Source: an uncultured Nitrospirota bacterium (GTDB lineage Bacteria > Nitrospirota > Thermodesulfovibrionia > Thermodesulfovibrionales > CALJEL01). Taken from it: a stretch of 55,293 nucleotides of DNA. The number at the start of each line of letters is the position of its first letter. Position 1 is the stretch's first letter. Below the pieces are notes generated by a model. That model worked only from the letters and a program-made list of their open reading frames with translations. It was not told the origin of the DNA and ran no database searches. Below are positions 9,689-45,199 of the stretch, piece by piece. The position numbers were made by a program, and so were the translations under genes. Location of the stretch: NCBI GenBank assembly GCA_947085365.1, contig CAMTWD010000070.1, positions 1-55,293 on the forward strand, written 5' to 3'.

Positions 9689-9785
9689 CTGCTACTTTCC
9701 AACTGTTGGGCTACACAGGGGAAATTGCCTTTCTCCTGTGAGACCTCCAACTGTTACTTCGCCACTAAAACTGTTACTTCGCCAC
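9689..9785 (-). repeat. Repeat cluster in the flgM leader: degenerate copy, imperfect hairpin, then two core copies 20 bp apart
   Basis: A degenerate copy lies at 9689-9703. A hairpin cacagggga...tctcctgtg spans 9714-9740, followed by gagacctcca. ctgttacttcgccac occurs at 9751-9765 and 9771-9785. Confidence 0.85.
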
Positions 9786-9807
9786 CTATTACGGTGCCTT
9801 TATTTTA

Positions 9808-9834
9808 TTATCGGCAAAAGATCTTAACCCTTTA
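9808..9834 (-). promoter_or_regulatory. Consensus sigma28 (FliA) promoter for flgM-flgN-flgK-flgL
   Basis: Minus strand reads TAAA-gggttaagatctttt-GCCGATAA, an exact TAAA-N15-GCCGATAA. It overlaps the 3' end of the flgJ-like gene, about 130 nt upstream of flgM. Confidence 0.7.
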
Positions 9835-10555
9835 ATCCTTTCAAAAATCCTTCTGGATCAATGGGTTTACCATTGGAGATCACCTCAAAATGGAGGTGAG
9901 GCCCTGTGCTGAGGCCGGTACTCCCAACAAGGGCAATCACCTCTCCCTCTGATACCTCCTGTCCCTGAACTACAAGGTTCAAACTGTTGTGTCCGTATCT
10001 GGTGATGAGTCCATTTCCATGATCAATCTCTACGAGATTACCATACCCATCTCTCCATCCACTAAAGGTAACCCTTCCTTTAAGGGGAGCCCTCACAGGA
10101 GAACCTGGAGGTGCTGTTATGTCTATGCCTTTATGAAATGACCAGAGCCCTGTAACAGGATGTACCCTCATCCCAAAACCAGAACTGATCCTTCCCTGAA
10201 CAGGAAGAAGAGGTAACCTTCCTGGATTGGTAGAGGGGTAAGAGTTCCAGGAACCCTCTGTCCTGATCTGACCATCATTCCTTCTCATTAATTCCCTCTC
10301 AATAGCAGATCCAAGTCCAATACCCCTCTCAGCAAGGACCCTCGAAAGCTCAAGATCAAAAAGGGATGTATAGATATCCTTCTGAAGCCCTCCCTCGGCA
10401 AGGGTCGTTCTCCTCATTGCCTTAAGGAGTTCGTATAAAAAGAGGGATTCCAGCTCCCTCGAGACAACCTTAATTGCCTCTCCTTTTGCCTCACCACCAA
10501 TCCTTGGATCCCTGTTAATGGGGTTGTTTAAACCATTATTCGGAATTATCTTCAT
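9824..10555 (-). CDS. flgJ: FlgJ-like rod-binding domain fused to an M23 (LytM) peptidase
   Basis: N-terminal SRELESLFLYELLKAMRRT (rod-binding domain). C-terminal HKGIDI...GYGNLVEIDHGNGLITRYGHNS...GSTGLSTGPHLHFEV (M23 motifs). Confidence 0.8.
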   Translation of the reverse strand: MKIIPNNGLNNPINRDPRIGGEAKGEAIKVVSRELESLFLYELLKAMRRTTLAEGGLQKDIYTSLFDLELSRVLAERGIGLGSAIERELMRRNDGQIRTEGSWNSYPSTNPGRLPLLPVQGRISSGFGMRVHPVTGLWSFHKGIDITAPPGSPVRAPLKGRVTFSGWRDGYGNLVEIDHGNGLITRYGHNSLNLVVQGQEVSEGEVIALVGSTGLSTGPHLHFEVISNGKPIDPEGFLKGLKG

Positions 10556-10559
10556 AATA

Positions 10560-11654: not shown

Positions 11655-11673
11655 AACATCTCTCCCTCCATCC

Positions 11674-12315: not shown

Positions 12316-12316
12316 C

Positions 12317-12979: not shown

Positions 12980-12981
12980 CC

Positions 12982-13770: not shown

Positions 13771-13782
13771 ATCTCCCTCCTC

Positions 13783-13797
13783 CTGTTACTTCGCCAC
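13783..13797 (-). repeat. Dispersed repeat copy in the flgF-flgG intergenic spacer
   Basis: Plus strand ctgttacttcgccac. Confidence 0.85.
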
Positions 13798-14534: not shown

Positions 14535-14646
14535 GTGGCGAAGTAACAGTGAGGGTCAGGGATAGGGGGAGTAATCTTTTGAGATTAAAGGGAATTTTTA
14601 AAGGCCCTGAAAGACCCCTTAAAGACCGTCACTGTTACTTCGCCAC
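14535..14646. repeat. MITE-like 112-bp unit with perfect 18-bp terminal inverted repeats made of the dispersed repeat
   Basis: gtggcgaagtaacagtga at 14535-14552 and tcactgttacttcgccac at 14629-14646 flank about 76 bp. Confidence 0.8.
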
Positions 14647-16430: not shown

Positions 16431-17247
16431 CCTCCATCAATGCCCTTAATCTCGTAATTGCCTGGCTGTGGATCTGGGATACCCTGCCCTCTGTAAGGCC
16501 GAGAACCTTTGCGATCTCCTTCATGGTGAGTTCATCCCAGTAATAAAGGGAGATAACGAGCCTTTCCCTCTCGGGAAGCCTCTCTATAATCGAGGCAATC
16601 CTCTCTTTCAGCCTCTTTTCTTCATAGAGCAGATCGGGTGTCTTGAAGTTCCTGTCTGGTATGGAATCCTGAAGGGAGAGTTCATCATCATACCTTGAAT
16701 CCGAAAAGTCCTCAAACCTCATTGTAATGGAGGAGGAGAGTTCACTAAGTAATTTGAAATACTCATCAAGAGAGATATTCAGTGCCTCTGCAAGCTCCTC
16801 TGCCTCTGGCATCCTGCCGAGCTTTGCCTTGAGATCTCTATGAGCTCCCCTCAAGGCCGTAAGTTTATTTCTCAATGACCTTGAGAAGGTCATGTTTGAC
16901 CTTATCTCATCGATCATGGCCCCTTTTATCCTCTGCTTCACAAAGGACTCAAGTTTACCGAGCTCCTCTTTATATCTCTCAAGGGACTCAAGCAGTCCGG
17001 TAATTCCTGCACTTATCAGATCATCTATAGTAAGCTGTGGTGGAAGCCTCCAGCTCAATCTCAAGGCAGTGTATTTAATATAGGGGAGGAAGGATCTGAT
17101 TACCTCCTCCACTGTTACCTCGCCACCTCCTGTTGGGGGTACACAGGGGGAAACTTTGTTTCCCCCTGTGAGACCCCCAGCTGTTACTTCGCCACCAGCT
17201 GTGACATCCTCTTTAACAGGATTATCCACAGCTATCCTCCACCCCAT
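16417..17247 (-). CDS. fliA: Flagellar sigma factor FliA (sigma28)
   Basis: Region 2 DDLISAGITGLLESLERYK and region 4 LTMKEIAKVLGLTEGRVSQIHSQA. The first 45 codons consist of repeat and hairpin modules. An alternative GTG start lies at 17112, with GAGG supplied by the repeat. Confidence 0.85.
   Translation of the reverse strand: MGWRIAVDNPVKEDVTAGGEVTAGGLTGGNKVSPCVPPTGGGEVTVEEVIRSFLPYIKYTALRLSWRLPPQLTIDDLISAGITGLLESLERYKEELGKLESFVKQRIKGAMIDEIRSNMTFSRSLRNKLTALRGAHRDLKAKLGRMPEAEELAEALNISLDEYFKLLSELSSSITMRFEDFSDSRYDDELSLQDSIPDRNFKTPDLLYEEKRLKERIASIIERLPERERLVISLYYWDELTMKEIAKVLGLTEGRVSQIHSQAITRLRALMEDEDV
17112..17195 (-). repeat. Composite repeat: core variant, 13-bp-stem GC hairpin, GAGACCCCCA, core copy
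   Basis: ctgttacctcgccac at 17112-17126. Hairpin cacagggggaaac-ttt-gtttccccctgtg at 17142-17170. ctgttacttcgccac at 17181-17195. Confidence 0.85.
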
Positions 17248-17262
17248 ATAAGATTATCCTCA

Positions 17263-17277
17263 CTGTTACCTCACTAC
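17263..17277 (-). repeat. Degenerate repeat copy at the flhG stop
   Basis: Plus strand ctgttacctcactac. Confidence 0.5.
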
Positions 17278-23076: not shown

Positions 23077-23352
23077 TCAGTGGCGAAGTAATAGTCCTGG
23101 AATCTTCTCCATAATCCATATCGTAAAGGCCATAAGCTCCCTCGCGATCCATGGCAACATAAAGAAGAGGCATAGAAAGACAGCTATTATCTTTGGTACA
23201 AAGACAAGGGTGAATTCCTGTATCTGTGTGACAGCCTGAAAGAGGCTCACAATAAGTCCAACGAGGAGGCTCACCAAAAGCACAGGCCCTGCCACAAAGA
23301 GTAGGGCTTTTAGAGACTCACCCGCTATATCCCTCAGTATATCTATCGTCAT
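23077..23352 (-). CDS. fliQ: Flagellar export protein FliQ
   Basis: The Met at 23352 (MTIDILRD) overlaps the fliP stop. QAVTQIQEFTLVFVPKIIAVF motif. The last codons (GLLLRH-stop) are encoded by a repeat copy. Confidence 0.9.
   Translation of the reverse strand: MTIDILRDIAGESLKALLFVAGPVLLVSLLVGLIVSLFQAVTQIQEFTLVFVPKIIAVFLCLFFMLPWIARELMAFTIWIMEKIPGLLLRH
23080..23094 (+). repeat. Dispersed repeat copy forming the 3' end of fliQ
   Basis: Plus strand gtggcgaagtaatag. Confidence 0.8.
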
Positions 23353-29153: not shown

Positions 29154-29267
29154 ACTTAGTGGCGAAGTAACAGTACTTAGTGGCGAAGTAACAGTATGAA
29201 ATTGCCCTGAAAAGAATATTTTTCTAAAAAGGTGAAGAGACCGGGAACTGTTACTTCGCCACTAAGT
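29154..29267. repeat. MITE-like 114-bp unit: two direct 21-mers plus one inverted 21-mer
   Basis: acttagtggcgaagtaacagt at 29154-29174 and 29175-29195. actgttacttcgccactaagt at 29247-29267. Confidence 0.85.
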
Positions 29268-30235: not shown

Positions 30236-31629
30236 CTTTGCCTCCTGTCAAATAAAAGAATAAGGTCCTGGACACTATCGGAGAGGTCTCGCCTCTCCTC
30301 CATTCCCTGTCTTATATAGACCCTAAGGGATTCCATCATCTCTATGGCATAATCAATCTTGGGATTTGAGCCAGGTTTATAGGCACCAAGATTTATCATG
30401 TCCTCATACTTTTTATATGTAGCAAGGGTCTCTACAAATCTCATGGCATACTCTCTGTGTGTTTCGCTTACTATATCAGGCATAACCCTGCTTATACTCT
30501 GAAGGACATCTACGGCAGGATAAAGGCCTTCTGCTGCGAGTTCCCTCGAAAGGATGATATGTCCATCAAGGATTGCCCTCGATGCATCAGCAATAGGATC
30601 GGCCATATCATCACCCTCGACAAGGACTGTATATATTCCTGTAATGGAGCCCCTTTCAAAGGCCCCTGCCCTTTCAAGAAGTCTCGGAAGGAGTGTAAAT
30701 ACCGATGGGGTGTATCCCTTTGATGTGGGCGGTTCTCCAGTGGCAAGCCCTATCTCCCTCTGTGCCTGGGCAACCCTTGTAAGGGAATCCATAAGGAGAA
30801 GGACATCATGACCTTCATCCCTGAAATATTCAGCGATGGCTGTAGCGGTAAAGGCAGCCCTCACCTTCTTCAAGGGTGGATCCTGGGCAGTGGATACAAC
30901 CACAACTGACTTTTCGAGCCCCTTCTCACCAAGATCCTTTTCTATAAAATCCTTTACCTCCCTTGCCCTCTCACCTATAAGGGCTATCACTGTAACAGTT
31001 GCCTCAGTAAATCGTGTTATCATTCCCATAAGGACGCTCTTTCCCACACCCGAACCTGCCATGATACCAATCCTCTGGCCTTTCCCACATGTGAGAAGAC
31101 CGTTGATTACCCTTATACCGAGATCAAGGGGTTCTGTTATCCTCTTTCTGTTAAGGGGGCTCACAGTAAAACCTGAAAGGGGATAGTCCTTTCCATAGAT
31201 GGGCCCTTTTCCGTCTATAGGGATGCCCTTGGCATCCACGATCCTCCCTATAAGGGATGGAGAGACCTTCACAGAGGTCCTCTTCCCTTCATTAATCACC
31301 CTGGCACCAGGCCTGATCTCCGTCATATCTCCTGTAGCCATAAGGAGGGCCCTTCCATCTTTGAACCCCACCACCTCTGCGTCAATGCCTACAGGATCAT
31401 CAGAGATAATCCTGCAGAACTCCCCAATGACAGGCCTAATACCAGAGACCTTTATCAAAAGACCTGTTATCTCTTCAACCCTTCCATAGACCTTTAACGA
31501 GTCAGCCTCTTTTATCTTTGAGATCAAGTTCGAGATCACCTTCTCTACTTTTACCTCGGGGATACACAGGGGGGAATATTCATTCCCCCCTGTGAGACCC
31601 CCGACTTTTACCTCGCCCTCTGCTGTCAT
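30232..31629 (-). CDS. fliI: Flagellum-specific ATPase FliI
   Basis: Walker A GSGVGKS and Walker B VLLLMDSLTR. The first ~29 codons are hairpin and repeat modules. An alternative GTG start lies near 31542. Confidence 0.95.
   Translation of the reverse strand: MTAEGEVKVGGLTGGNEYSPLCIPEVKVEKVISNLISKIKEADSLKVYGRVEEITGLLIKVSGIRPVIGEFCRIISDDPVGIDAEVVGFKDGRALLMATGDMTEIRPGARVINEGKRTSVKVSPSLIGRIVDAKGIPIDGKGPIYGKDYPLSGFTVSPLNRKRITEPLDLGIRVINGLLTCGKGQRIGIMAGSGVGKSVLMGMITRFTEATVTVIALIGERAREVKDFIEKDLGEKGLEKSVVVVSTAQDPPLKKVRAAFTATAIAEYFRDEGHDVLLLMDSLTRVAQAQREIGLATGEPPTSKGYTPSVFTLLPRLLERAGAFERGSITGIYTVLVEGDDMADPIADASRAILDGHIILSRELAAEGLYPAVDVLQSISRVMPDIVSETHREYAMRFVETLATYKKYEDMINLGAYKPGSNPKIDYAIEMMESLRVYIRQGMEERRDLSDSVQDLILLFDRRQR
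31565..31619 (-). repeat. Perfect 13-bp-stem hairpin plus GAGACCCCC and a degenerate core copy
   Basis: cacaggggggaat-attc-attcccccctgtg at 31565-31594, then agacccccgacttttacctcgccct. Confidence 0.8.
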
Positions 31630-32252: not shown

Positions 32253-33213
32253 GCCTCCTTGCCACAGAGGCTATGTTCTTCTGGGCCTTCTGTATATCCG
32301 AGACCCTCACAGGGCCTTTTGCCTCCATCTCATCTTTAAGTATCTGGACTGCCCTCTGGGACATATTTTTGAATATCTTCTCCTTGAGGGCCTCTGTTGC
32401 TGTCTTGAGGGCAATTGCAAGGTCATCAGTGGAGACCTCCTTGAGGATAAGCTGTATAGACCTGTCATCAAGGGTTATGAAATCCTCAAAGGTAAACATA
32501 TTCTCACGGATCTCATCAGCCAGGTCTATATCCTGTTCTTCTATCTTTTGAAAGACTATCTCCTCAGTGACCTTATCGCAATAGTTCAGTATATCTGCTA
32601 AGGCCTTTGTGCCTTTTAATTCCCTTATCCTTCCCGCCCTTAGTGGCGAAGTAACAGTTGAAATCCTTATCCTTCCCTTCAATATCTCTCTGAGCTCTTC
32701 TATACCCTCCTCAGGGATCCTCTCCATTACTGCTATCCTTGAGGCAACCTCTCCTTTTAATTTATCAGGAAAGAGGTTTAAGACCTTTGCAGCCTTTTCA
32801 GGCTCCATAAGAGAAAGGGCCATGGCAATTATCTGGGGATGTTCATTGCGGAGCACTGCTGCTAAGGCCTTTGGATCGGTTCCTTCAAAAAGCTCAAAGG
32901 GACTCTCCTCGGAGATTATCTCCATAACCTCCCGTGCCCTCTCCTCTCCCAGTCCTCTCGGAAGGAGATTCTTTATAAAATCAGGCCCTGAAACAGGTAT
33001 CTCATCTCTTTCAATGATCCCTGCTGCCTCCTTTATTACTTCCTCAAGGTCTTTCTTTGTCACCCTCCTGAACCTCTTCATCTGAAGGGTAAGGGTTTTT
33101 ACTGTAACAGGATCCAGTGACTTCAGGACCTCAGAGGCCACATCCTCTCCCAGGGCAATCAAAAAGAGGGCTGCCTTCTCATATCCCTTAAGCCCCATCT
33201 CACCTCTCCTCAA
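32197..33213 (-). CDS. fliG: Rotor/switch protein FliG
   Basis: GYEKAALFLIALGEDVASEVLK...IRENMFTFEDFITLDDRSIQ...MSQRA. The probable start is the Met at 33198, which has a GAGGAGAGGTGAG SD. Confidence 0.95.
   Translation of the reverse strand: MRRGEMGLKGYEKAALFLIALGEDVASEVLKSLDPVTVKTLTLQMKRFRRVTKKDLEEVIKEAAGIIERDEIPVSGPDFIKNLLPRGLGEERAREVMEIISEESPFELFEGTDPKALAAVLRNEHPQIIAMALSLMEPEKAAKVLNLFPDKLKGEVASRIAVMERIPEEGIEELREILKGRIRISTVTSPLRAGRIRELKGTKALADILNYCDKVTEEIVFQKIEEQDIDLADEIRENMFTFEDFITLDDRSIQLILKEVSTDDLAIALKTATEALKEKIFKNMSQRAVQILKDEMEAKGPVRVSDIQKAQKNIASVARRLEKEGRIIISKGGEGVVV
32643..32657 (+). repeat. Repeat copy inside fliG
   Basis: gtggcgaagtaacag; encodes TVTSPL within ...RIRISTVTSPLRAGRIRELKG... 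Confidence 0.85.
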
Positions 33214-34784: not shown

Positions 34785-34789
34785 TGAAT

Positions 34790-35095
34790 TCAGACCTGCA
34801 TCCTCTGAATCTCTTCATAGGCACTTATAAGCCTGTTACGAACCTCCACCATAAGCTGGAAGGAAAGCTCTGCCTTCTGCATGGCTATAACAGCCTGAGT
34901 AATATCTCCTCCTCGTGCAAGCTCCTTCACAGCCTTCTCAGCATCAGACTGTATCTGCTCAAGTTTTCCTATGGCTTCCCTGAGAAGCAGATCAAAGGAT
35001 CCTTCTGAAACTGCAGAAGGCCTCTGGAGAACTGTTACTTCGCCACTAAGATTGGTATTGATAGAGCTTAGATTATTTATCCTTACCTCAGACAT
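34790..35095 (-). CDS. fliE: FliE
   Basis: C-terminal AVIAMQKAELSFQLMVEVRNRLISAYEEIQRMQV. Confidence 0.85.
   Translation of the reverse strand: MSEVRINNLSSINTNLSGEVTVLQRPSAVSEGSFDLLLREAIGKLEQIQSDAEKAVKELARGGDITQAVIAMQKAELSFQLMVEVRNRLISAYEEIQRMQV
35032..35046 (-). repeat. Repeat copy inside the fliE 5' region
   Basis: ctgttacttcgccac; encodes SGEVTV. Confidence 0.85.
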
Positions 35096-37297: not shown

Positions 37298-38508
37298 GAG
37301 GTCATCTCCTTTAGTGGCGAAGTAACAGTTGGTGGCGAGGTAACAGTTACTCCCTGGGAGACCTCATCACTGAGAAGGGATGGGATAGAGAGGATAAAGG
37401 TGGTTCCCTCACCAGGTCTGCTCTCCACATTTATAAATCCACCGTGAGCCTGGACTATCCTTGCTGTAATGGTAAGACCGAGACCTGTGCCAGTAGGTTT
37501 TGTTGTAAAGAATGGATCAAATATCCTATCAATAATCTCAGGTTCAATACCTGTACCGGTATCCTTGATGATAAAGGAGGTATATCCACCATCCTCTTTG
37601 AGATCAACGCTTATATTCCCACCCTCAGGCATTGCCTGGATAGCATTTATAAAGAGGTTCAGGAGGGCCTGCCTCAGGAGATCACCGTCAGCCATGAGAA
37701 GAGGATCTTTATCGGTCACATCTATCTGGACATTGCTGGATCTCAAGATTGGGTCGATGATCTCCAGGACGGACCTAAGCAGGTCTCTGAAGGTGATGGG
37801 CTTAAGGTTTACCCTCTCAGGTCTTGCAAAGATTAGGATATTCGTTAAGATATTATTTAGTGTTCTTATCCCTGATGTGATACCCCTTGAAAGATCCTTC
37901 CCTTTTTCGCTCAGTATCTCATGCTCCAGCATAGTGGCAAAAAGTTCGATACTGCAAAGGGGATTCCTTATCTCGTGGACTATCCTTGCGGCCATCTCAC
38001 CCATGGCTATCAACCTCTGATTCCTTTCATGTTGCATCTCCAGTTCTCTGAGCCTTGTAATATCTTTTATGATGATGACCTCTCCGATGAGATCTCCATC
38101 GCTCACAACAGGTGCACTGGAAAGGATAATGTTCCGCCTCTTCCCATTTGAATAAAGGACAGCCTCTGGACCTTCCCGGTTTATAGAGAAATCCATCTCC
38201 GAAAGACCTCTGCCAAGGACCTCCTCAGCCCTCACACCAAAGAGTTCTTCAGCGGAATGATTAATCATTATTATCCTCTCCTGAGGATCTATCACGACCA
38301 TCGCCTCTTCCATGCTCTGGATAATGGCATTAAGAAAGTCCCTATTTCGCTCCACCTCCTTCAGGGCAGACTCAAGGGCAGAGTTTTTCTTCTGGACCTC
38401 CTCTGTAAGAGACCTTATCTTCTCCTGAAGAGATGCATAATAGGACTCAAGACTCTTTGATGCCTTTGTAAAGTTATCAAAGGCCTCATTGAGAAGCTTC
38501 AGATCCAT
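37294..38508 (-). CDS. Sensor histidine kinase (PAS-HisKA-HATPase; FleS/FlrB/FlgS-like)
   Basis: H-box HEIRNPL, N/G boxes ([21 protein letters not shown]). The C-terminal tail TVTSPPTVTSPL is encoded by two repeat copies. Confidence 0.9.
   Translation of the reverse strand: MDLKLLNEAFDNFTKASKSLESYYASLQEKIRSLTEEVQKKNSALESALKEVERNRDFLNAIIQSMEEAMVVIDPQERIIMINHSAEELFGVRAEEVLGRGLSEMDFSINREGPEAVLYSNGKRRNIILSSAPVVSDGDLIGEVIIIKDITRLRELEMQHERNQRLIAMGEMAARIVHEIRNPLCSIELFATMLEHEILSEKGKDLSRGITSGIRTLNNILTNILIFARPERVNLKPITFRDLLRSVLEIIDPILRSSNVQIDVTDKDPLLMADGDLLRQALLNLFINAIQAMPEGGNISVDLKEDGGYTSFIIKDTGTGIEPEIIDRIFDPFFTTKPTGTGLGLTITARIVQAHGGFINVESRPGEGTTFILSIPSLLSDEVSQGVTVTSPPTVTSPLKEMTS
37314..37346 (+). 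repeat. Two repeat copies 18 bp apart forming the C-terminal tail of the kinase
   Basis: gtggcgaagtaacag at 37314 and gtggcgaggtaacag at 37332. Confidence 0.85.
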
Positions 38509-40534
38509 AGAGATCCTCCTTAAGCCTCTTCAATAATAGGGTCTCCTCAGCAAGGAGGCCAGTAAGGTTCGTAGAAAAAGGTGCTGTCTTATTCCCTGAA
38601 TCCTCTCCTGTGATTACAGAAACCCTATAGATTGTCCAGTCCATCTCCTGGGGTGTAAGTTCTCTCTTCTTCTCATCGGAGAGGGCAATCCTGTAATATT
38701 TCAAGGCGTCATCCCTTTTCCCTCTTTCGTAAAGAAGGTCTGCAAGCCTCACATAGGAGGATGCATCAGCACCATATTTATCTATGAGCCTCTTTAAAAG
38801 TTCTATGACCCTTCCTTCCTTTGTATAAAGGGAGATGGTCATGAGGGTGGGGATATCCTCTTGCTTCAATTCCTTTATCTTAATAAGGTGATCAAGTCCC
38901 TTCTTATAATCACCCCTTTTTACCAATGTCATGGCATATGTCCTCTGCTCGCGGTCTGTTAAGGGTATGATGTTACTGATCATGGTAAAGGCCTTCTCAA
39001 CATCACCAATGGAGAGATAAAACTGGGCCATCAAAAAAGAGGCTCTCCTCTTTTCTTCTCCTTTAGTCTTTCTGAAAAGCCATGAGGAGAGTTCAAAAAA
39101 TTCCTTTTTAGATTCCCCCATGAGTTCTGCAACCCTGAAGAGAAAATCTGTATTTGAGGGGTCAAGGAATAATCTTGAAAAGTCCCTCCATATAGTGATG
39201 AATTCCTCTCTATTACTTCTGCCTGCCTCAAGGAGCGTATCCTTCAGAAACCTCATCGCCTCCTGAGAAGGGTCTCTTTTTAATATCAGTGGCAGGAGGG
39301 TACGGGCAGACTCCCTAAGCTTATTCCCTTTTCTGTAAATCTCTGCCTGCAATAGAAGTGCCCTCTCGTAATCCTCTCCGTAGGGATATAGGGATCTCAG
39401 TGCAATGAGCCTCTTCATTGCCTCATCAGATCTGCCAAGTCTTATGAGTGATTCGGCACTCATAAGAAGTGCCTTCTGCCTTAGAGATGGCCCAACTGCA
39501 GGAACTGTTACCTCGCCACTGGCAACTGTTACCTCGCCACTAAGTGTTGAGTGAAGGATCTGTTCAAAGTATTTCAGGGCCTCCTGAGGTCTGTTCCTTT
39601 TTAATTCCAGTATCCCGAGATCCAGATAGGCCCTGTATCTCAGGGGAGCCTCTTTTACTGATGTAAGATACCTTATTGCCTCTTCATATCGACCCAGGGC
39701 CAGCCTATTCTCCCCTATATAAAGCCTTGTCTCTGGAGAGGTCTTTATAAATCCCGTATCCCTGAGGAGCAGATCAATATAAAGCTTATTTGCCTCTGAG
39801 ATCCTTCCCATGAGATGAAGGGTATTTGCCTTTCCAAACTGCACTGCCATGGAATCCCCTGCCATCTCATAATATTTGAGGGCCTCCTGATAAAGACCCT
39901 GTGCCCTGAGGGATTCAGCAATACCATAGAAGGCCTCTCTTTTATACTGAGATTCGGGAAAGAGCCTCAACAAAAGCCTGTAGGCCACAGTTGCCTCAGG
40001 ATAAAACCTCATTCGGGCATAAAGATCTGCCCTTTTAAAATGCGCCTCTTCCTTTATCCGTCCAGTTCCATAGGAGACTGCCCTTTGAAGATGCTCAAAG
40101 GCCTCATAATACCTGTTAAGGCCTATTAGAACCTTGGCATAAAGGAGATGGTATAGACCCCTCTCTTCTGCAATGGGCCTTACAGATTGAAGAAGGCTGA
40201 GGCCCTTCCTTAATTCACCAGATTTTATAAGCTCGGAAACCTTAGTAAGATCCTCACTTTGTGGCGAACTACCACCACCCTTCGTGGCAAAGGAAAGGTG
40301 CTGAAGTAAAGAAAAGAGAAAGAACAGAATAAAGAGGAGGGTCTTCCACCCTCTGCACTGAGTGACGAAGTAACGCTTCAAGCCTCCTGAGAGCCTCATG
40401 CCAGAGAAAAAGCAATAAATATGCCAGAATAGAACTACTTGATTAGTAAAGGTTTTTCTGGAAGGTGTCACTTTAATGACATGGGTGGCAAAGTAACAGT
40501 AGGGGGTCTCACAGGGGGGAACGACGGGTCGCAC
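38486..40534 (-). CDS. TPR-repeat protein
   Basis: Many TPR-like AxxYY/ALKYY repeats. The probable start is the Met at 40399 (MRLSGG...), followed by a TM segment; the upstream extension is repeat-derived. Confidence 0.75.
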   Translation of the reverse strand: MRPVVPPCETPYCYFATHVIKVTPSRKTFTNQVVLFWHIYCFFSGMRLSGGLKRYFVTQCRGWKTLLFILFFLFSLLQHLSFATKGGGSSPQSEDLTKVSELIKSGELRKGLSLLQSVRPIAEERGLYHLLYAKVLIGLNRYYEAFEHLQRAVSYGTGRIKEEAHFKRADLYARMRFYPEATVAYRLLLRLFPESQYKREAFYGIAESLRAQGLYQEALKYYEMAGDSMAVQFGKANTLHLMGRISEANKLYIDLLLRDTGFIKTSPETRLYIGENRLALGRYEEAIRYLTSVKEAPLRYRAYLDLGILELKRNRPQEALKYFEQILHSTLSGEVTVASGEVTVPAVGPSLRQKALLMSAESLIRLGRSDEAMKRLIALRSLYPYGEDYERALLLQAEIYRKGNKLRESARTLLPLILKRDPSQEAMRFLKDTLLEAGRSNREEFITIWRDFSRLFLDPSNTDFLFRVAELMGESKKEFFELSSWLFRKTKGEEKRRASFLMAQFYLSIGDVEKAFTMISNIIPLTDREQRTYAMTLVKRGDYKKGLDHLIKIKELKQEDIPTLMTISLYTKEGRVIELLKRLIDKYGADASSYVRLADLLYERGKRDDALKYYRIALSDEKKRELTPQEMDWTIYRVSVITGEDSGNKTAPFSTNLTGLLAEETLLLKRLKEDLYGSEASQ
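39505..39540 (-). repeat. Two repeat copies 21 bp apart inside the TPR gene
   Basis: ctgttacctcgccac at 39505 and 39526; encode SGEVTVASGEVTV. Confidence 0.85.
40362..40376 (+). repeat. Degenerate repeat copy
   Basis: gtgacgaagtaacgc. Confidence 0.5.
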
Positions 40535-40560
40535 AGGGGGAAACTTTGTTTCCCCCTGTG
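40485..40560. repeat. Composite repeat: core variant, inverted GAGACCCCC half, 13-bp-stem hairpin
   Basis: gtggcaaagtaacag at 40485-40499, then agggggtctcacagggggg. Hairpin cacagggggaaac-ttt-gtttccccctgtg at 40532-40560, just after the stop of the upstream regulator gene. Confidence 0.85.
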
Positions 40561-40577
40561 TACCCCCAACAGTGGGG

Positions 40578-42125
40578 TTAACTGATACCCAATCTCTTCA
40601 TCTTCTCAATGAGGGTGGTCCTGTTTATGCCAAGAAGTGCCGCTGCCTTTGACCTCACACCACCTGCCTTCCGGAGGGCATTGAGTATGAGGTTCCTCTC
40701 TGTTTCCTCAAGAACCTTCGCCAGATCGATCCCTCCTTCAGGTATATCCTCCAGGGTTGGTGGCGAAGTAACAGTGCTCAGTGGCGAAGTAACAGTAGGA
40801 AGTCCCTTATCCACCCCTTCTCTCTTCAGGAATCTCTCAGGAAGGTCATCGGGCATCACAACCTCATGAGAGACCAATATCGTCAATCTCTCCACGAGGT
40901 TTTCCAGCTCCCTGACATTTCCTGGCCAGTCATATCTCATTAGTACAGCCAGTGCCTCCTCTGAAAATCTGAGAGGCTTACCCTTTCTCTTCCTCTGAAA
41001 CCTTTTCAAAAAATGATCTAAAAGGAGTGGAATGTCCTCCCTCCTCTCTCTTAGTGGAGGAAGATGGATAGGGATAACATTCAACCTCCAGTAAAGGTCT
41101 TCCCTGAACTTACCCTCTCTTACAGCCTCTTCAAGATTCCGGTTTGTTGCTGCAATTATCCTCACATCCACCTTTATGGTCTTCACACCACCAACCCTCT
41201 CGAATTCCCTCTCCTGTAAAACCCTCAGGAGTTTCACCTGAAGGGATGGATCGAGTTCTCCTATCTCATCAAGAAAGAGTGTCCCCTTATTTGCAAGCTC
41301 AAACCTCCCTATCCTTGTATTAACAGCTCCTGTAAAGGCACCCCTTTCGTGTCCAAAGAGCTCTGACTCGAGGAGGTCCCTCGGGATGGCTGCACAATTT
41401 ATCGGCACAAAGGGGCCTTCAGCCCTTGAGCTGTTGTAGTGTATGGTCTTTGCCACAAGCTCCTTGCCCGTCCCACTCTCACCAGTGATGAGGATCGTGC
41501 TGTCTGTATCGGCTATCTTCTCAATCAGATCGTAAATCCTCTGCATCTTAATGGAATCTCCCACGAGGACTGAAAAGTGATATCTCTGTCTCAACTGCCC
41601 TTTCAGGGCAATATTCTCCCTCTCAAGTCGTGAAACCTCGAGGGCCTTCTCGATAATCAATTGGAGTTCCTCAAGGTTAAATGGTTTAGTAATATAATCA
41701 AAGGCGCCGAGTTTCATAGAAAGCACGGCATTCTGTATCGTTCCATAGGCTGTCATAATGATAACAGGCACCTTTATCCTTCTTGAATTAAGTTCCTTCA
41801 ATATCTCAATACCTCCAACCCTTGGAATCACGAGGTCTATGATGGCAAGGTCAAATCTCTCAGATATCAATAATTCAAGACCTGATTCACCAGAATCAGA
41901 AAGGGTAACCTCGTAACCCTTTTCACTCAGAAAGGTTTTCAACACATCCAGCACAGTGGGGTCATCATCGATAACAAGTATCTTTGCCATATAACTATTG
42001 TAGTGCCCTTTATTCCTTAAGTCAATATTTTGACAACTCTTAATTAAAGTTTTACCCTTGCCATCCGAATTAAAAATAGGAGCCTTCTGTAGTGGAGGTG
42101 TTGGTATGACCATATCTCCCTTCAA
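40578..42125 (-). CDS. sigma54-dependent transcriptional activator with receiver domain (NtrC family; FleQ/FlrA-like candidate)
   Basis: Receiver (KILVIDDD), AAA+ ([14 protein letters not shown]) and Fis HTH. The probable start is the Met at 41990 ([10 protein letters not shown]). The linker carries [13 protein letters not shown] from two repeat copies. Confidence 0.9.
40760..40795 (+). repeat. Two repeat copies 21 bp apart in the AAA+-to-HTH linker of the activator
   Basis: gtggcgaagtaacag at 40760 and 40781. Confidence 0.9.
42045..42071 (+). promoter_or_regulatory. Weak sigma28-like promoter candidate (TAAA-N15-TCCGAATT)
   Basis: TAAA and the 15-nt spacing are exact; the -10 matches only 4 of 8 positions. 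Confidence 0.2.
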
Positions 42126-42384
42126 GATTTATGAGCTGATGCACCTCTACGACCGCATCTCTAAAGTAAGGAATCCCGGCACCGTTACCTCGCCACTAAG
42201 GGAAGGGCCAGTTGGTGGCGAAGTAACAGTTCCTAGTGGCGAAGTACCAGTTGAGAAGACCATCTTCTGGGGTGGCACCGAGATGGAGGAACCAAAGGAT
42301 GTGGTCCACATCTCCTCAGAAGCAAAAAGGAGACAGATTATTGAGGAGACAAAAAAGGAGGTCCTCGAAAAGATAAGAGAGTGA
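42106..42384 (+). CDS. Small protein with a FlgM-like DVVHISSEAK motif
   Basis: ATG at 42106 with a GGAGGTG SD 5 nt upstream. The C-terminal DVVHISSEAKRRQIIEE resembles DRVEISSEARMAARL of flgM. The middle is made of three repeat copies. Confidence 0.4.
   Translation: MTISPFKIYELMHLYDRISKVRNPGTVTSPLREGPVGGEVTVPSGEVPVEKTIFWGGTEMEEPKDVVHISSEAKRRQIIEETKKEVLEKIRE
42182..42250. repeat. Three repeat copies (one inverted, then two direct 21 bp apart)
   Basis: ccgttacctcgccac at 42182, gtggcgaagtaacag at 42215 and gtggcgaagtaccag at 42236. Confidence 0.85.
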
Positions 42385-42385
42385 T

Positions 42386-42958
42386 GTGAAAAGGGAAGAA
42401 TTCAGGATACTTATTGCTGATGATGACGAGATAGCAAGAGATGTCCTCAGCGAGATTCTTAAGAAAGAAGGTTTCCCTGTAAGCACTGCAAAGGATGGAC
42501 TTGAGGCAATAGGTCTTCTCAGGACCGAGGAGTTCAGTCTCGTCATTACAGACCTCAGGATGCCCGGTGCAGATGGAATGGAGGTCCTCAGGTATGCTGC
42601 CAGAAACAGTCCCCAGAGCATGGTGGTGATACTTACTGCCTATGGCACAATTGATATAGCCCTTGAGGCTATAAAAGAAGGTGCCTATGACTACCTTGCA
42701 AAACCCTTCAAGGTGGAGGAGATAGTCTTCCTGGCATTAAAGGCCTTTGAAAGGGCCCAGCTCCTTGAGGAGTTGAAGGAATTGAGAGGTATCCTGAGGG
42801 AGACATTCCGGGATATGAAGGTGATAAACAATATATCAAAGGGTGAACCAAGGATGATAACAGACTGGATAGAAAGGATAGAGAGGCTCAAGGAGAAGGA
42901 TATACTCACTCAGCAAGAGGCTGAGATACTGAAAAAGAGGTTGGTGATGGGAGATTGA
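42386..42958 (+). CDS. CheY-like response regulator with a C-terminal helical extension
   Basis: GTG start; RILIADDDEIARD...ITDLRMPGADG...LAKPF. Confidence 0.85.
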   Translation: MKREEFRILIADDDEIARDVLSEILKKEGFPVSTAKDGLEAIGLLRTEEFSLVITDLRMPGADGMEVLRYAARNSPQSMVVILTAYGTIDIALEAIKEGAYDYLAKPFKVEEIVFLALKAFERAQLLEELKELRGILRETFRDMKVINNISKGEPRMITDWIERIERLKEKDILTQQEAEILKKRLVMGD

Positions 42959-42974
42959 GAAGGCCAGAATCCTC

Positions 42975-44408
42975 GTGGTTGATGATGACCCTACTGTGCG
43001 GAATGTCCTGAAGGAGATAATATCAGGTCTTGGTATGGAATGCCATACCGCTGAGGATGGCAGAGGAGCAATAGAATTGATTGCCAGTAATCCCTATGAT
43101 GTCATCCTCTCAGACATAACCATGCCTGTAATGGATGGACTCCAGTTCCTCAGGGAGATCAGGGAGATTACACCCTTCACACCTGTAGCCATAATCACCG
43201 GTTATCCCACCTTCGAAAATGCCGTAAATGCCATGAAGGAAGGGGCAAGGGATTTTATAGTAAAGCCCTTCAATGTAGAGAAGATAAGAACCACCCTCGA
43301 AAGACTCCTGAAGGAAAAGAGGCTCATGGGCTCACCACAGGGGGCATCAAAGGATGAACTCCGAAGGGAGCTCATAAAGAAGCTTCAGGAGATAGCAATA
43401 CTTCAGTCCATAAGCTCTGAGCTTGACGAGCTCTATGATAACAGGAAGATCTATGAGCAGATAGTGGAGATGGTCTCAAGGCTCCTTAGGGCAAGGGAGG
43501 TTGCCTTTGGAATAATAAAGAAAGGCTTCATAAGAATAGAGAATGCCACCTTTTCGACGCGGAAGGAGATACCTATATCAGAGCCGATAGAGGTGATGAT
43601 GAAAAATAAAGGACCTCTCCAGCTTAAGAGAGGAGATAGAGATCCTCTAAGGGGTGTGACCCTTGAAGAGGAGCTCCTCTTAGTGCCCCTCATCCTCAAC
43701 GGTGAGGTCTTCGGAATCCTCAGTATATCCGATAAGATTGACGAGGAGCCCTTTTCAGAGGATGAGATCTATCTTGCTATAACCTTTGCAAAAAAGGTAT
43801 CCCTCAGGATAGAAAATAATGCCCTTTATGAACTCTTCTACAATAATCTCCTGAATACCCTGAGATCACTCATCGCAAGTATAGAGGCAAGGGACTCCTA
43901 TACAAAGCAACACTCTGAAAGGGTCACAGCCTATGCCCTTCAGATCGCAGAGGTGATGGGACTGAAGGAGGAGGATAAGGAATCACTCCATTTTGGTGGT
44001 TATCTCCATGACATAGGAAAGATAGGGGTAAAGGATACGGTCCTTCTGAAGAAGGGTCCCCTTACAGAGGAAGAGATAGCCGAGATAAGACTTCATCCAG
44101 TAATAGGTGAAGGCATCGTAAGACCATTGAAGTTTCTTCCATCAGAAAGGGAGATCATCCTCTACCATCATGAGAGATTTGATGGAAGGGGGTATCCTGA
44201 CGGCCTTTCTGGAGATAGGATACCACTCCTTGCAAGGATCCTTGCGGTTGCTGATACCTATGATGCCATGACATCCACAAGGCCATACAGGGATGCCCTC
44301 AGTCACGAAAAGACTATAGCAGAGATAAAGGCCTCTTCAGGATCACAATTTGATCCTGAGATTGTAAAGGCCTTTCTCCAGACACCTATTGCGAGGAGGA
44401 TAGATTGA
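42975..44408 (+). CDS. Response regulator with GAF-like and HD-GYP (c-di-GMP phosphodiesterase) domains
   Basis: Receiver motifs (VVDDD, SDITMPVMDG, VKPF). HD-GYP motifs HSERV...YLHDIGKIGV...HHERFDGRGYPDGL. The reading frame is open from 42948, so the true start may be a non-ATG codon upstream. Confidence 0.85.
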   Translation: MVDDDPTVRNVLKEIISGLGMECHTAEDGRGAIELIASNPYDVILSDITMPVMDGLQFLREIREITPFTPVAIITGYPTFENAVNAMKEGARDFIVKPFNVEKIRTTLERLLKEKRLMGSPQGASKDELRRELIKKLQEIAILQSISSELDELYDNRKIYEQIVEMVSRLLRAREVAFGIIKKGFIRIENATFSTRKEIPISEPIEVMMKNKGPLQLKRGDRDPLRGVTLEEELLLVPLILNGEVFGILSISDKIDEEPFSEDEIYLAITFAKKVSLRIENNALYELFYNNLLNTLRSLIASIEARDSYTKQHSERVTAYALQIAEVMGLKEEDKESLHFGGYLHDIGKIGVKDTVLLKKGPLTEEEIAEIRLHPVIGEGIVRPLKFLPSEREIILYHHERFDGRGYPDGLSGDRIPLLARILAVADTYDAMTSTRPYRDALSHEKTIAEIKASSGSQFDPEIVKAFLQTPIARRID

Positions 44409-45199
44409 AGGAACTAAAAAAAGGAGAAAGGATACTCCTGAGCCCAGCAAAATGTGGCGAGGTAACGATTGGGAAGATCAGGTGGAGTGGCAATATCCTA
44501 TCAGTTGATGGAGATGGGGTGACCGTGGAGCTTGACACTGATATAAAGGAGATAAGGCCTGGAGATGGGGTGATACTTATAATTGAAAGGCCTGACTACT
44601 ATAATGAATTCCATGCCACTGTTATGGAGAAAAAAAAGAGGGTATGGAGGCTGAAATGGCACTGGCCTGAAAGGAGGGAATTCTTCCGGATAGACGATCT
44701 GATAGGAATCTCTGCAAGAAAGATATGTCCTGAGATGAAGAGGGCATCACGAATAATTCATACCAGCAGTGGCGAAGTAACAGTTGGTGGCGAGGTAAGA
44801 CTCTCTGAATTTGATATCCCCGATCCATCCATCAGCCCAGGTCTTTGGAAGATTCTCAATGAGATCAATAGAAAGCTCAACATCCTCCTTGAAAGGATGA
44901 ATCAGCAAAAGGAGGATGCACCAAGTCTTGAATACCAGAAGGTGAACATCAGTGCGGGAGGGATAAGGTTTATAAGTTCAGAAAAGGTGGAGAGAGGGGA
45001 TATCATGGAGGTGAGACTCCTTCTCCCTACATGCCCTCCATTAGATATCCTCACCTATGGAGAGGTGGTAAGGATTAAGGAGACTGACCATGGTTATGAG
45101 GTGGCTCTGAGCTTCAAGGAGATAGAGGAGGAGGTGAAGGAGGCAATTCTCAGATACACCATCCAGAAACAGAGAGAACAACTGAGAAAACAGAGATGA
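44405..45199 (+). CDS. PilZ-domain c-di-GMP receptor (YcgR-like position upstream of motA)
   Basis: RREFFR (RxxxR) and NISAGG (D/NxSxxG) motifs, separated by about 80 aa that include a repeat-encoded SGEVTVGGEV. Confidence 0.75.
   Translation: MKELKKGERILLSPAKCGEVTIGKIRWSGNILSVDGDGVTVELDTDIKEIRPGDGVILIIERPDYYNEFHATVMEKKKRVWRLKWHWPERREFFRIDDLIGISARKICPEMKRASRIIHTSSGEVTVGGEVRLSEFDIPDPSISPGLWKILNEINRKLNILLERMNQQKEDAPSLEYQKVNISAGGIRFISSEKVERGDIMEVRLLLPTCPPLDILTYGEVVRIKETDHGYEVALSFKEIEEEVKEAILRYTIQKQREQLRKQR
44454..44468 (+). repeat. Degenerate repeat copy in the PilZ gene 5' region
   Basis: gtggcgaggtaacga. Confidence 0.5.
44769..44801 (+). repeat. Two repeat copies 18 bp apart inside the PilZ gene
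   Basis: gtggcgaagtaacag at 44769 and gtggcgaggtaagac at 44787. Confidence 0.8.

What the first reader, a model, noticed from the sequence alone, without database searches (positions are those of the whole stretch)
9751..44801. Repeat copies inside ORFs use only stop-free frames, and tandem spacing is 18/21 bp in coding DNA but 20 bp in two clearly intergenic arrays
The consensus 21-mer has stops in three of its six frames: TAG in the flank, TAA in the core, and TAA or TGA on the reverse strand. Copies internal to well-supported ORFs read SGEVTV (fliK, fliE, TPR, PilZ) or TVTSPL (fliG, sigma54 activator linker, kinase tail). CYFATK appears at the ylxF-like N-terminus. One fliK copy (28913) sits in the TAG frame but reads AAG instead. 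All eight tandem pairs inside ORFs are spaced 18 or 21 bp: 28433/451, 28560/578, 28695/716, 37314/332, 39505/526, 40760/781, 42215/236, 44769/787. The arrays in the flgM leader (9751/9771) and the fliE-fliF spacer (34730/750/770) have a 20-bp period, whereas the intergenic pair 29154/29175 is spaced 21 bp. This is the signature of insertion followed by purifying selection for frame, and it implies the peptides are really translated.
Basis: partly seen in the sequence, partly recalled or inferred. Interest (0 to 1): 0.7.

Follow-up and report, generated by a model that had tools for sequence, protein, structure and literature searches.

The report
Tiny mobile repeat colonising genes in-frame
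A 16-base sequence with a short variable tail (18-21 bases per unit) has been inserted dozens of times into this bacterium's flagellar gene cluster, and the copies that survive inside genes are those whose length and reading frame keep the protein intact, which is an unusually clean case of very small selfish DNA reshaping conserved proteins.

Summary
The core ACTGTTACYTCGCCAC occurs 46 times (2 mismatches or fewer) in 55 kb, against 0.01 expected. The window is a flagellar cluster of an uncultured Thermodesulfovibrionales (Nitrospirota) genome.

Every in-gene copy I could compare is an insertion relative to orthologues. FliG carries an exact 7-residue insert in its M-C linker.

All nine in-gene tandem pairs are spaced 18 or 21 bp. 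The flgM-leader and fliE-fliF arrays are spaced 20 bp. The same core occurs in related metagenomes and MAGs, and the rule holds there too: 24 of 24 independent in-gene arrays have a period divisible by 3, against 4 of 12 intergenic arrays (p = 1.6e-5).

Loci 93-99% identical to each other show clean 18-, 19-, 20- and 21-bp presence/absence differences, and arrays that differ by whole 18-bp units.

"Only stop-free frames" is partly a tautology. The real signals are a bias towards two frames (GEVTV, TVTSP), 4-5-fold intergenic enrichment, and two copies in stop frames that supply the flhG and fliQ stop codons.

My best reading is a very small non-autonomous mobile repeat, filtered by purifying selection. 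It resembles cyanobacterial SDRs in size and Rickettsia RPEs in its in-frame insertion. The insertion mechanism is unknown. Translation is inferred, not shown.

The parts
6148..6163 (+). Solo copy (1 mismatch), intergenic.
9623..9638 (+). Degenerate copy (2 mismatches) read GEVTA in the FlgM N-terminal region, before the FlgM domain.
9705..9785 (+). flgM leader: hairpin element H (9705-9749) followed by two copies 20 bp apart (9750, 9770). It lies downstream of a GCCGATAA box that resembles a sigma-28 -10 element.
13782..13797 (+). Solo copy (1 mismatch) in the 34-bp spacer between two rod genes.
14535..14646 (.). Inverted pair of exact copies (14535-14550 on -, 14631-14646 on +) bracketing 80 bp of intergenic DNA.
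17111..17195 (+). Composite of copy, hairpin H and copy. It is read in-frame as about 30 residues (GGEVTAGGLTGGNKVSPCVPPTGGGEVTV) in the N-terminal extension of FliA.
17262..17277 (+). Degenerate copy in the stop-containing frame. Its internal TAA (17266-17268) is the flhG stop codon.
23080..23095 (-). Copy at the FliQ C-terminus, read LLLRH and followed directly by the stop codon. It replaces the ancestral last residues.
28358..28373 (+). Solo copy in FliK, read LSGEVTV.
28432..28465 (+). FliK tandem pair, 18 bp apart, read WRGDS/WRSNS. The flanks are CC/CA rather than TAG.
28559..28592 (+). FliK tandem pair, 18 bp apart, GEVTV frame.
28694..28730 (+). FliK tandem pair, 21 bp apart, GEVTV/GEVAV.
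28912..28927 (+). Degenerate FliK copy read WQSNG.
29037..29081 (.). Inverted pair in the FliK N-terminus (TVTSPLS then GEITV). It forms an 18-bp-stem hairpin around a fragment of element H.
29159..29195 (-). Intergenic tandem pair, 21 bp apart, identical units.
29247..29262 (+). Solo intergenic copy.
29309..29324 (+). Degenerate copy: a 7-8-residue insert (ALSVEVTA) near the C-terminus of the MgtE_N/ylxF-like protein.
29762..29798 (-). Tandem pair, 21 bp apart, read CYFATK twice just after the GTG start of the ylxF-like protein. There is no alternative in-frame start downstream.
31558..31619 (+). Hairpin H plus a degenerate copy (3 mismatches). It forms a 21-residue in-frame insert right after the fliI ATG, which still overlaps the fliH stop.
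32638..32658 (-). 21-bp unit giving the 7-residue insert TVTSPLR in the FliG linker between the M and C domains.
   Evidence: also present in the separately assembled contig L001
34729..34784 (+). Three copies at a 20-bp period. With their flanks they fill the 61 nt that split the ancestral fliE-stop/fliF-start overlap (TGATG). The last T of the array makes a TTG start.
35031..35046 (+). Solo copy in the FliE N-terminal region (LSGEVTV); a 6-residue insert relative to L002.
37314..37347 (-). Tandem pair, 18 bp apart, in the C-terminal tail of the histidine kinase (TVTSPPTVTSPL).
39504..39540 (+). Tandem pair, 21 bp apart, in the TPR protein; a 17-residue gap in both orthologues.
40485..40572 (-). 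One copy (1 mismatch) plus one and a half H hairpins, at or just upstream of the start of the TPR gene (start codon ambiguous).
40760..40796 (-). Tandem pair, 21 bp apart, in the sigma-54 activator linker between the AAA lid and the HTH domain ([13 protein letters not shown]).
42181..42251 (.). One forward and two reverse copies (21 bp apart) forming an insert of about 29 residues in a conserved small protein (42058-42384).
44454..44469 (-). Degenerate copy (2 mismatches) in the N-terminus of the PilZ protein.
44769..44802 (-). Tandem pair, 18 bp apart, in the PilZ protein, upstream of the PilZ domain.
51757..51772 (+). Degenerate copy (2 mismatches) in a second TPR protein (GEITV).

Best explanation
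The repeat is a very small, non-autonomous, dispersed DNA element. It has a 16-nt core, ACTGTTACYTCGCCAC, with a sharp 5' edge, followed by a loosely conserved tail of 2-5 nt. It spreads by insertion of units 18-21 bp long, often next to an existing copy or a sequence resembling part of one. Arrays then grow and shrink by whole units, probably through replication slippage or unequal exchange.

Insertion itself is blind to coding. Purifying selection then removes copies that shift the frame, bring in a stop, or encode a harmful peptide. What remains in genes are 18- and 21-bp units, read mostly as (L/G)SGEVTV or TVTSP(L/P), sitting in linkers, tails and N-termini. All unit lengths, including 19 and 20 bp, persist between genes.

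Shown here: copies are insertions; they are polymorphic between close relatives; period and frame depend on coding status.

Inferred: the inserted peptides are translated; slippage is the cause of copy-number change; something recognises the core.

Unknown: the enzyme or process that inserts new units.
For: 1. Abundance. 46 copies against 0.01 expected. The information profile gives a 16-nt block of 1.6-2.0 bits (0.9-1.2 bits at the Y position), then about 1 bit for three more positions and nothing upstream.

2. Insertions relative to orthologues:
- FliG has an exact 7-residue gap in 12 homologues.
- The sigma-54 activator, TPR protein, kinase, FliE, FliI, the ylxF-like protein, FliK, FliQ and the small ORF also carry the copies in gaps.
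- The syntenic 21-kb loci of two relatives lack the repeat.

3. Filled and empty sites between loci 93-99% identical:
- 18 bp (L007 against L009), 19 bp (L030 against L009), 20 bp (L018 against L033), 21 bp (L019 against L018, L028 and L033).
- One 17-nt core variant (ACTGTTACTTACGCCAC) is inserted at two sites 1.2 kb apart, in opposite orientations. That points to copying from a template rather than convergent point mutation.
- Arrays differ by 18-bp units: 4 copies against 2, and 4 against 3 against 1.

4. Lineage-specific burst. About 7 exact tandem-pattern matches lie in this 55-kb contig. The two species-representative MAGs that matched have 3 each across the whole genome.

5. The hosts are not specific to flagella. 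In relatives they include BamA, SMC, Ham1, TonB, an ABC-2 permease, CbiQ and GH57.

6. Selection filter:
- Period divisible by 3 in 24 of 24 genic arrays against 4 of 12 intergenic arrays (p = 1.6e-5).
- 12 of 46 copies lie in the 5-7% of DNA that is intergenic.
- Frame use by independent locus is 14, 5, 2, 2, 1, 1 (p = 1.2e-5).
- My own hand count, not scripted, gives about 15, 14, 4, 4, 2, 0 in relatives, where five frames are open.
- The FliG insert lies in a coil with pLDDT below 50.

7. Not an assembly artefact. A separately assembled contig (L001) that is 99.94% identical over 4,965 bp also carries the copies.
Against: - No transposase, HUH/Y1, IS110 or reverse-transcriptase gene was found near copies. 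Only about 350 kb was sampled, so absence is weak evidence.
- There is no consistent target-site duplication and the unit has no terminal inverted repeats, so no known transposition chemistry fits.
- Neighbouring copies keep near-identical cores (3.6% of positions differ) while their tails differ at 45% of positions. That figure is inflated, because the last tail of an array is really flank. Even so, the contrast is not what simple duplication and neutral drift would give. It needs repeated side-by-side insertion, core-limited gene conversion, or selection on the core.
- The same core is conserved across lineages whose FliG proteins are only about 70% identical. That would also fit a functional recognition site.
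- Genome-wide density in this organism could not be measured.
Confidence: 0.65

Rival explanations
1. The 16-mer is a DNA uptake sequence, like the Neisseria DUS or the Pasteurellaceae USS. Competent cells would preferentially take up DNA carrying it. Alleles that contain it, including insertion and duplication alleles, would then spread by recombination, and the uptake receptor would keep the core constant.
For: - Density is 0.83 per kb here. USS is 0.80 per kb and DUS 0.89 per kb (PMC2817400).
- Both orientations occur.
- The core is conserved across related lineages with different preferred flanks, TAAGT here and CA(A) in relatives.
- Reading frames are biased and copies sit in poorly conserved protein segments, as reported for USS and DUS (PMC2817400).
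- Cores are conserved while spacers drift.
Against: - USS and DUS arise by mutation plus homologous recombination, not insertion. About 94% of the peptides they encode align without gaps (131 of 140 and 86 of 91; PMC2817400). Here essentially every copy is an indel.
- USS and DUS are spaced more evenly than random. These copies are clustered (CV 1.27, P = 0.046).
- Direct tandem arrays of 2-4 units are common here.
- Density differs by more than 100-fold between sister lineages.
- Competence in this clade is unknown.
Confidence: 0.1
2. The 16-mer is a binding site for an abundant DNA-binding protein, such as a nucleoid-organising or regulatory factor. Copies would be kept by selection for that function, and the in-frame peptides would be a tolerated by-product.
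For: - A sharp, strongly conserved 16-nt core with free spacers.
- Tandem spacing of 18-21 bp, about two helical turns.
- Enrichment in intergenic and leader regions.
- Conservation of the core across lineages.
Against: - Sister lineages with the same gene order have none of the copies in the syntenic region, so no conserved function is attached to particular sites.
- Copies are polymorphic between near-identical strains.
- Most copies lie inside coding linkers of unrelated genes.
- There is no match to sigma-54 or sigma-28 promoter consensus (read directly from the sequence).
Confidence: 0.1
3. The solo units and arrays are footprints or fragments of longer elements: hairpin H in this genome and a MITE-like element of about 120 bp in relatives. 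They would be left behind by excision, or by recombination between flanking copies, so the 16-mer itself would not be the mobile unit.
For: - Every H copy abuts a full 16-mer on its 3' side and a partial 16-mer on its 5' side.
- In relatives a MITE-like element carries one or two copies internally, in at least 8 places.
Against: - The carriers differ between lineages, whereas the 16-mer is shared.
- Solo units and arrays without a carrier far outnumber composites: 4-5 H elements against 46 copies.
- Filled and empty sites show insertion of the bare 18-21-bp unit with no trace of a carrier.
- The pattern fits better with the 16-mer being a target for the carriers, or nested inside them.
Confidence: 0.1

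Closest known systems
Small dispersed repeats (SDR4-6) of Nostoc and related cyanobacteria. Source: Elhai et al. [quoted passage not shown] That paper was not held, so details rest on my own knowledge plus the citations in PMC3116915 and PMC5861425.
   Same: - Dispersed repeats of about 20 nt with no coding capacity.
- Mobility inferred from filled and empty orthologous sites.
- Burst-like abundance in one lineage.
- Nesting in or next to other small repeats or MITE-like elements.
- No known mobilising enzyme.
   Different: - Unrelated sequence and a different phylum (Nitrospirota).
- The unit is shorter (18-21 against 21-27 nt), with a fixed 16-nt core and a tail of variable length.
- No hairpin within the unit.
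- Direct tandem arrays are frequent.
- About three quarters of the copies here lie inside protein-coding genes, in frame.
Rickettsia palindromic elements (RPE). Source: Ogata et al. 2000, summarised in PMC10969869.
   Same: - Selfish repeats inserted in-frame into unrelated, conserved protein-coding genes.
- They add peptide segments that the protein fold tolerates.
   Different: RPEs are about 100-150 bp and palindromic, and each encodes one conserved peptide. Here the unit is 18-21 bp, not palindromic, read in several frames on both strands, and often tandem.
DNA uptake sequences (USS/DUS). Source: PMC2817400.
   Same: - About 0.8 copies per kb, in both orientations.
- Reading-frame bias.
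- Location in poorly conserved parts of proteins.
   Different: Uptake sequences arise by point mutation and recombination, are evenly spaced and rarely coincide with alignment gaps. These copies are insertions, clustered and tandem.
REP/REPIN elements with RAYT transposases. Source: PMC3116915.
   Same: - Short, very abundant, non-coding repeats.
- They occur singly, in inverted pairs and in clusters.
- They are targets or neighbours of other small elements.
   Different: REPs are imperfect palindromes and are extragenic. The 16-mer has no palindrome and is mostly intragenic. No RAYT gene was seen in the DNA sampled.
In-frame coding minisatellites (VNTRs).
   Same: Arrays change by whole units of 18 bp between close strains without breaking the frame.
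   Different: VNTRs are local duplications of host sequence. Here one and the same core is dispersed over dozens of unrelated genes and intergenic sites, on both strands.

Membership tests
Small dispersed repeats (SDR, Elhai 2008) | A dispersed, high-copy repeat of about 21-27 nt with no coding capacity. | tested here: met
   46 copies in 55 kb. The unit is 18-21 nt, slightly below the published range. The range itself is recalled from memory.
Small dispersed repeats (SDR, Elhai 2008) | Mobility shown by filled against empty orthologous sites. | tested here: met
   Clean 18-, 19-, 20- and 21-bp indels between loci 93-99% identical, and gaps in orthologue alignments.
Small dispersed repeats (SDR, Elhai 2008) | Sequence relatedness to the SDR1-8 families, and occurrence in Nostocaceae. 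| tested here: not met
   The organism is a Thermodesulfovibrionales (Nitrospirota). The 16-mer was not found in any held paper. The resemblance is one of kind, not homology.
Rickettsia palindromic elements | In-frame insertion into conserved protein-coding genes. | tested here: met
Rickettsia palindromic elements | A palindromic element of about 100-150 bp encoding one conserved peptide. | tested here: not met
   The unit is 18-21 bp, has no internal palindrome, and is read in at least 4 frames.
DNA uptake sequences (USS/DUS) | Copies arise by point mutation and homologous recombination, not by insertion. | tested here: not met
   All comparable copies are indels. Criterion taken from PMC2817400.
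DNA uptake sequences (USS/DUS) | Spaced more evenly than random. | tested here: not met
   Gap CV is 1.27 against 0.97 for random placement, P = 0.046 for clustering. This rests on one 55-kb window only.
DNA uptake sequences (USS/DUS) | Preferential uptake of DNA that carries the motif by competent cells. | not testable with these tools
   This needs uptake experiments or a complete genome with competence genes.
REP/REPIN-RAYT | Each unit is an imperfect palindrome and is extragenic. | tested here: not met
   The core has no palindrome (read directly). 34 of 46 copies lie inside ORFs.
REP/REPIN-RAYT | A RAYT (Y1 HUH) gene flanked by the repeats somewhere in the genome. | tested here: inconclusive
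   No such gene was found among the window genes tested or among genes flanked by copies in the related loci. The full genome was not available.
MITE | Terminal inverted repeats and a fixed target-site duplication. | tested here: not met
   The unit has no terminal inverted repeats, and the filled/empty pairs show no consistent duplication. Separate MITE-like carriers do exist.

The most novel reading that the evidence does not exclude
The 16-nt core is the recognition sequence of a dedicated, still unidentified machinery that copies units of about 18-21 bp into new sites, preferentially beside existing or partial copies. This would be a self-targeting mobile DNA smaller than any element with a known mechanism. 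It would routinely add short flexible peptides to essential proteins (FliG, FliI, FliA, BamA, SMC) and so act as a generator of linker variation in this Nitrospirota lineage.
Probability: 0.25. Interest if true: 0.85.

Novelty: new variant of a known kind. Interest (0 to 1): 0.6.

Why it matters
The finding extends the little-studied class of very small mobile repeats beyond cyanobacteria, to an uncultured Nitrospirota lineage.

It also gives an unusually clear natural experiment. One DNA unit lands everywhere, and coding constraint alone sorts it by length (18 or 21 bp against 19 or 20 bp), by frame and by position in the protein.

It shows that conserved machines such as the flagellar switch protein FliG, the export ATPase FliI, sigma-28, BamA and SMC can take on 6-30 extra residues from selfish DNA.

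The conserved core next to free spacers, together with insertion beside partial copies, gives testable clues to an unknown insertion mechanism.

On the practical side, such repeats cause over-extended or wrongly called starts, supply stop and start codons, and split overlapping gene pairs (fliE-fliF). Annotators of MAGs should be aware of this.

Tried and rejected
- Exact look-up of the FlhA product: not on record.
- Scan of species-representative genomes for the exact 21-mer: 0 hits. This MAG's species is therefore not among the representatives, and its genome-wide density could not be measured.
- Search of the protein database with a synthetic peptide made of LSGEVTV and TVTSPLS repeats, meant to reach other contigs of the same genome: nothing scored at E of 10 or below. 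One search was wasted.
- Viral contigs: 28 single hits, which fall into three families of homologous phage genes. That is chance level, with no multi-copy contig.
- Rfam: no family matched in the window, so hairpin H is not a known RNA.
- Literature: the 16-mer and its complement appear in no held paper. Nothing was found on repeats in Thermodesulfovibrionales. The Elhai 2008 paper is not held.
- Search for a mobilising enzyme: Pfam scans of genes flanked by copies gave only ordinary genes, namely PilZ, UPF0047, a kinase, a ParA-like protein and others.
- Promoter idea: the core does not fit the sigma-54 or sigma-28 consensus (read directly).
- tRNA-end idea: the relatives' unit ends in GCCACCA, but the preceding bases do not fit a T-arm. 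I dropped this by inspection only.
- Assembly artefact: rejected, because the separately assembled contig L001 is 99.94% identical and carries the same copies.
- My first gene caller marked the pair 42215/236 as intergenic. This was corrected after finding the conserved small-protein homologue.

Full report
**What is in the window.**
The window is a 55.3-kb contig with 44% G+C. It encodes a flagellar and regulatory cluster, mostly on the minus strand.
- The closest FliG proteins carry source names from Thermodesulfovibrionales/Nitrospirota MAGs. The window's own FliG is in the database from an NCBI record and from a Logan assembly of run ERR3478709.
- The core ACTGTTACYTCGCCAC occurs 46 times with 2 mismatches or fewer (27 exact), against 0.01 expected.
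- An information profile shows a sharp 16-nt block, three weaker positions after it (Y-A-A/G), and nothing upstream.
- The entity is therefore a 16-nt core with a loose tail, not a fixed 21-mer.

**Check of the observation.**
- The eight in-gene pairs are spaced 18 or 21 bp. A ninth pair (29762/783, 21 bp) belongs with them, because the ylxF-like gene has no in-frame start codon downstream of the repeats.
- The ORF 42058-42384 looked doubtful. It is a real small gene with a 63-residue homologue at the same place in a relative.
- The flgM-leader pair and the fliE-fliF triple have a 20-bp period. The pair at 29159/180 is intergenic with a 21-bp period.

Three corrections are needed.
- Three FliK copies, not one, use the WRSNS-type frame.
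- Two copies sit in stop-containing frames exactly at gene ends and supply the flhG and fliQ stop codons.
- 'Copies in ORFs are stop-free' is a tautology.

**Are the copies insertions?** Yes.
- FliG aligned with 12 homologues (51-73% identity in the alignment) shows one gap of exactly 7 residues. It is filled here by TVTSPLR, encoded by one 21-bp unit.
- Two syntenic loci from relatives (L002, L004; about 70% DNA identity) lack the repeat altogether.
- In alignments of eight further proteins with their orthologues from those loci, the copies fall in gaps or at remodelled termini. These are the sigma-54 activator linker, the TPR protein, the kinase tail, the FliE N-terminus, the FliI N-terminus, both ends of the ylxF-like protein, FliK, and the FliQ C-terminus.
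- At fliE-fliF, the ancestral overlapping TGATG has been split by a 61-nt block made of three units. The last T of that block recreates a TTG start.
- The separately assembled contig L001 is 99.94% identical to the window and carries the copies too, so they are not an assembly artefact.

**Related sequences.**
- A tandem-pair pattern found 31 stretches in four JGI metagenomes, and 6 stretches in two species-representative MAGs of the same order.
- There the preferred tail is CA or CAA, giving units of 18 or 19 bp.
- The hosts include BamA, SMC, an AIR-synthase-like protein, Ham1, a YbgF-like TPR protein, an ABC-2 permease, CbiQ, TonB, a GH57 enzyme and others. The element is therefore not tied to flagella.

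Pairs of loci 93-99% identical to each other differ by clean indels of one unit:

| Indel | Filled locus | Empty locus or loci |
|---|---|---|
| 18 bp | L007 | L009 |
| 19 bp | L030 | L009 |
| 20 bp | L018 | L033 |
| 21 bp | L019 | L018, L028, L033 |

- A 17-nt core variant appears at two nearby sites in opposite orientation. That points to copying from a template.
- Arrays differ by whole 18-bp units (4 against 2 copies; 4 against 3 against 1).
- No consistent target-site duplication is seen.
- Two new units lie next to sequence that already resembled part of the core.

**Statistics.** I merged orthologous duplicates and copies of one MITE-like carrier before counting.

| Data set | In-gene arrays with period divisible by 3 | Intergenic arrays with period divisible by 3 | Fisher p |
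|---|---|---|---|
| Window plus relatives | 24 of 24 | 4 of 12 | 1.6e-5 |
| Relatives alone | 15 of 15 | 3 of 9 | 6e-4 |
| Window alone | 9 of 9 | 1 of 3 | 0.045 |

- In the window, 12 of 46 copies lie in the 5-7% of DNA that is intergenic, an enrichment of about 4-5-fold.
- Frame use by independent locus in the window is GEVTV 14, TVTSP 5, CYFAT 2, WRSNS 2, LLLRH 1, VAK*Q 1 (p = 1.2e-5).
- Among only the three frames that are stop-free in the consensus, the bias remains (p = 0.004).
- In relatives five frames are open. My hand tally, which was not scripted, still gives the same two frames about three quarters of the loci.
- The one variable core position (Y) is synonymous in exactly those two frames (GAA/GAG and ACT/ACC; read directly).
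- The CYFAT frame is seen only at N-termini.

In-gene copies sit at domain boundaries according to Pfam. In an AlphaFold model of FliG (mean pLDDT 67), the insert lies in a coil with pLDDT below 50, residues 178-194, between two helices.

**Other structure around the repeat.**
- This genome has a strong hairpin element H, with a DNA fold of -21 to -24 kcal/mol and z about -7 for the best copies, and with base changes between copies that keep the stem paired.
- Each H is followed by a full core and preceded by a partial 5' piece of the core of 5-12 nt.
- H is absent from the relatives. They instead carry a MITE-like element of about 120 bp that holds one or two cores.
- The core is thus the shared component, and the carriers are specific to each lineage.
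- Neighbouring copies keep near-identical cores (3.6% of positions differ) while their tails differ at 45% of positions. That figure is inflated, because the last tail of an array is flank. The internal spacers of three-copy arrays with 20- or 21-bp periods still differ at 8 of 14 positions (hand count).
- This does not fit plain duplication and drift. It suggests repeated insertion side by side, conversion limited to the core, or selection on the core.

**Interpretation.**
The best-supported account is a very small non-autonomous mobile repeat whose copies are sorted by purifying selection.
- Translation of the inserted peptides is inferred from intact essential genes and has not been observed.
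- The insertion mechanism is unknown. No transposase-like gene was found in about 350 kb.

The main rival is an uptake-sequence-like motif.
- It matches in density (0.83 per kb here; 0.80 for USS and 0.89 for DUS, PMC2817400), in orientation and in frame bias.
- It fails on origin by insertion, on clustering, on tandem arrays, and on density differences of more than 100-fold between sister lineages.
- A binding-site function and a footprint-of-carrier origin are not excluded, but they have less support.

**Comparison with what is known.**
- In kind, the element is closest to the small dispersed repeats of Nostoc (Elhai et al. 2008; cited in PMC3116915 and PMC5861425; the paper was not available, so details are from memory).
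- In its in-frame colonisation of genes, it is closest to Rickettsia palindromic elements (PMC10969869).
- It differs from both in sequence, host phylum and size, in having a fixed core with a variable tail, in lacking a palindrome, in forming tandem arrays, and in the share of copies that lie inside genes.
- I rate it a new variant of a known kind, with moderate to high interest.

Noticed in passing
window 9705-9749, 17132-17179, 31558-31603, 40500-40572: A second repeat family: a strong hairpin, GGGGGTACACAGGGGGAAAC-TTT-GTTTCCCCCTGTGAGACCCCC, with base changes between copies that keep the stem paired. It is always joined on its 3' side to a full 16-mer and preceded by a 5-12-nt partial 16-mer. 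It is read in the same frame (GGLTGGN..SP) in the FliA and FliI N-termini. It is absent from the related loci.
   Followed up: partly
L006:1040-1150, L006:8260-8350, L007:3780-3880, L020:9830-9930, L023:740-850, L024:760-860, L027:3230-3330, L030:5850-5950, L034:10-120: A MITE-like element of about 120 bp in the relatives: AGAGCAGCAGAGCAG, then one or two 16-mers, then AAATAGGATAGTATGGAAAAATTTCTTCCTTTAAAAACTGCTGCTCTACTGC. Most of the intergenic 19-bp pairs are copies of this one element, so they are not independent events.
   Followed up: partly
window 34729-34792: The fliE stop and fliF start overlap as TGATG in relatives. Here they are split by the 61-nt repeat block, and the last T of the block creates a TTG where the ATG used to be. 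The next ATG is two codons downstream.
   Followed up: yes
window 17266-17268 and 23077-23079: The flhG stop codon is the internal TAA of a degenerate repeat copy. The fliQ stop directly follows a copy that replaced the ancestral C-terminal residues.
   Followed up: yes
window 9800-9830 (minus strand): A perfect GCCGATAA box, which matches the sigma-28 -10 consensus, lies upstream of the repeat-plus-hairpin leader of flgM. If it is the promoter, the array would be transcribed as part of the flgM 5' UTR. The -35 element was not examined.
   Followed up: no
window 34749-34764 against L001:4922-4937: The middle copy of the fliE-fliF array reads ACATCG in the window and ACCTCG in the separately assembled contig L001. 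This may be a strain difference or homogenisation of the array.
   Followed up: partly
L019:9965-9985 and L019:11218-11243: A 17-nt core variant (ACTGTTACTTACGCCAC) is inserted twice within 1.2 kb, in opposite orientations. One of the two is absent from a locus 98.7% identical (L028), which suggests local spread of a new sub-variant.
   Followed up: partly
window 27925-29124: FliK, the hook-length ruler, holds 10 of the 46 copies. About 65 of its 399 residues come from the repeat, yet its length stays within the range of its orthologues (321-421 residues). Any effect on hook length is unknown.
   Followed up: no
window 36984-37072 and 43182-43270: An 89-nt inverted match, 71% complementary, between the second sigma-54 activator gene and the response-regulator/HD gene. 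It probably reflects paralogous receiver-domain sequence on opposite strands.
   Followed up: no
L002:860-875: A single copy with one mismatch (ACTGTTACTCCGCCAC) inside the ribonucleotide reductase gene of a relative that otherwise lacks the repeat in 21 kb. This could be chance or a relic.
   Followed up: no
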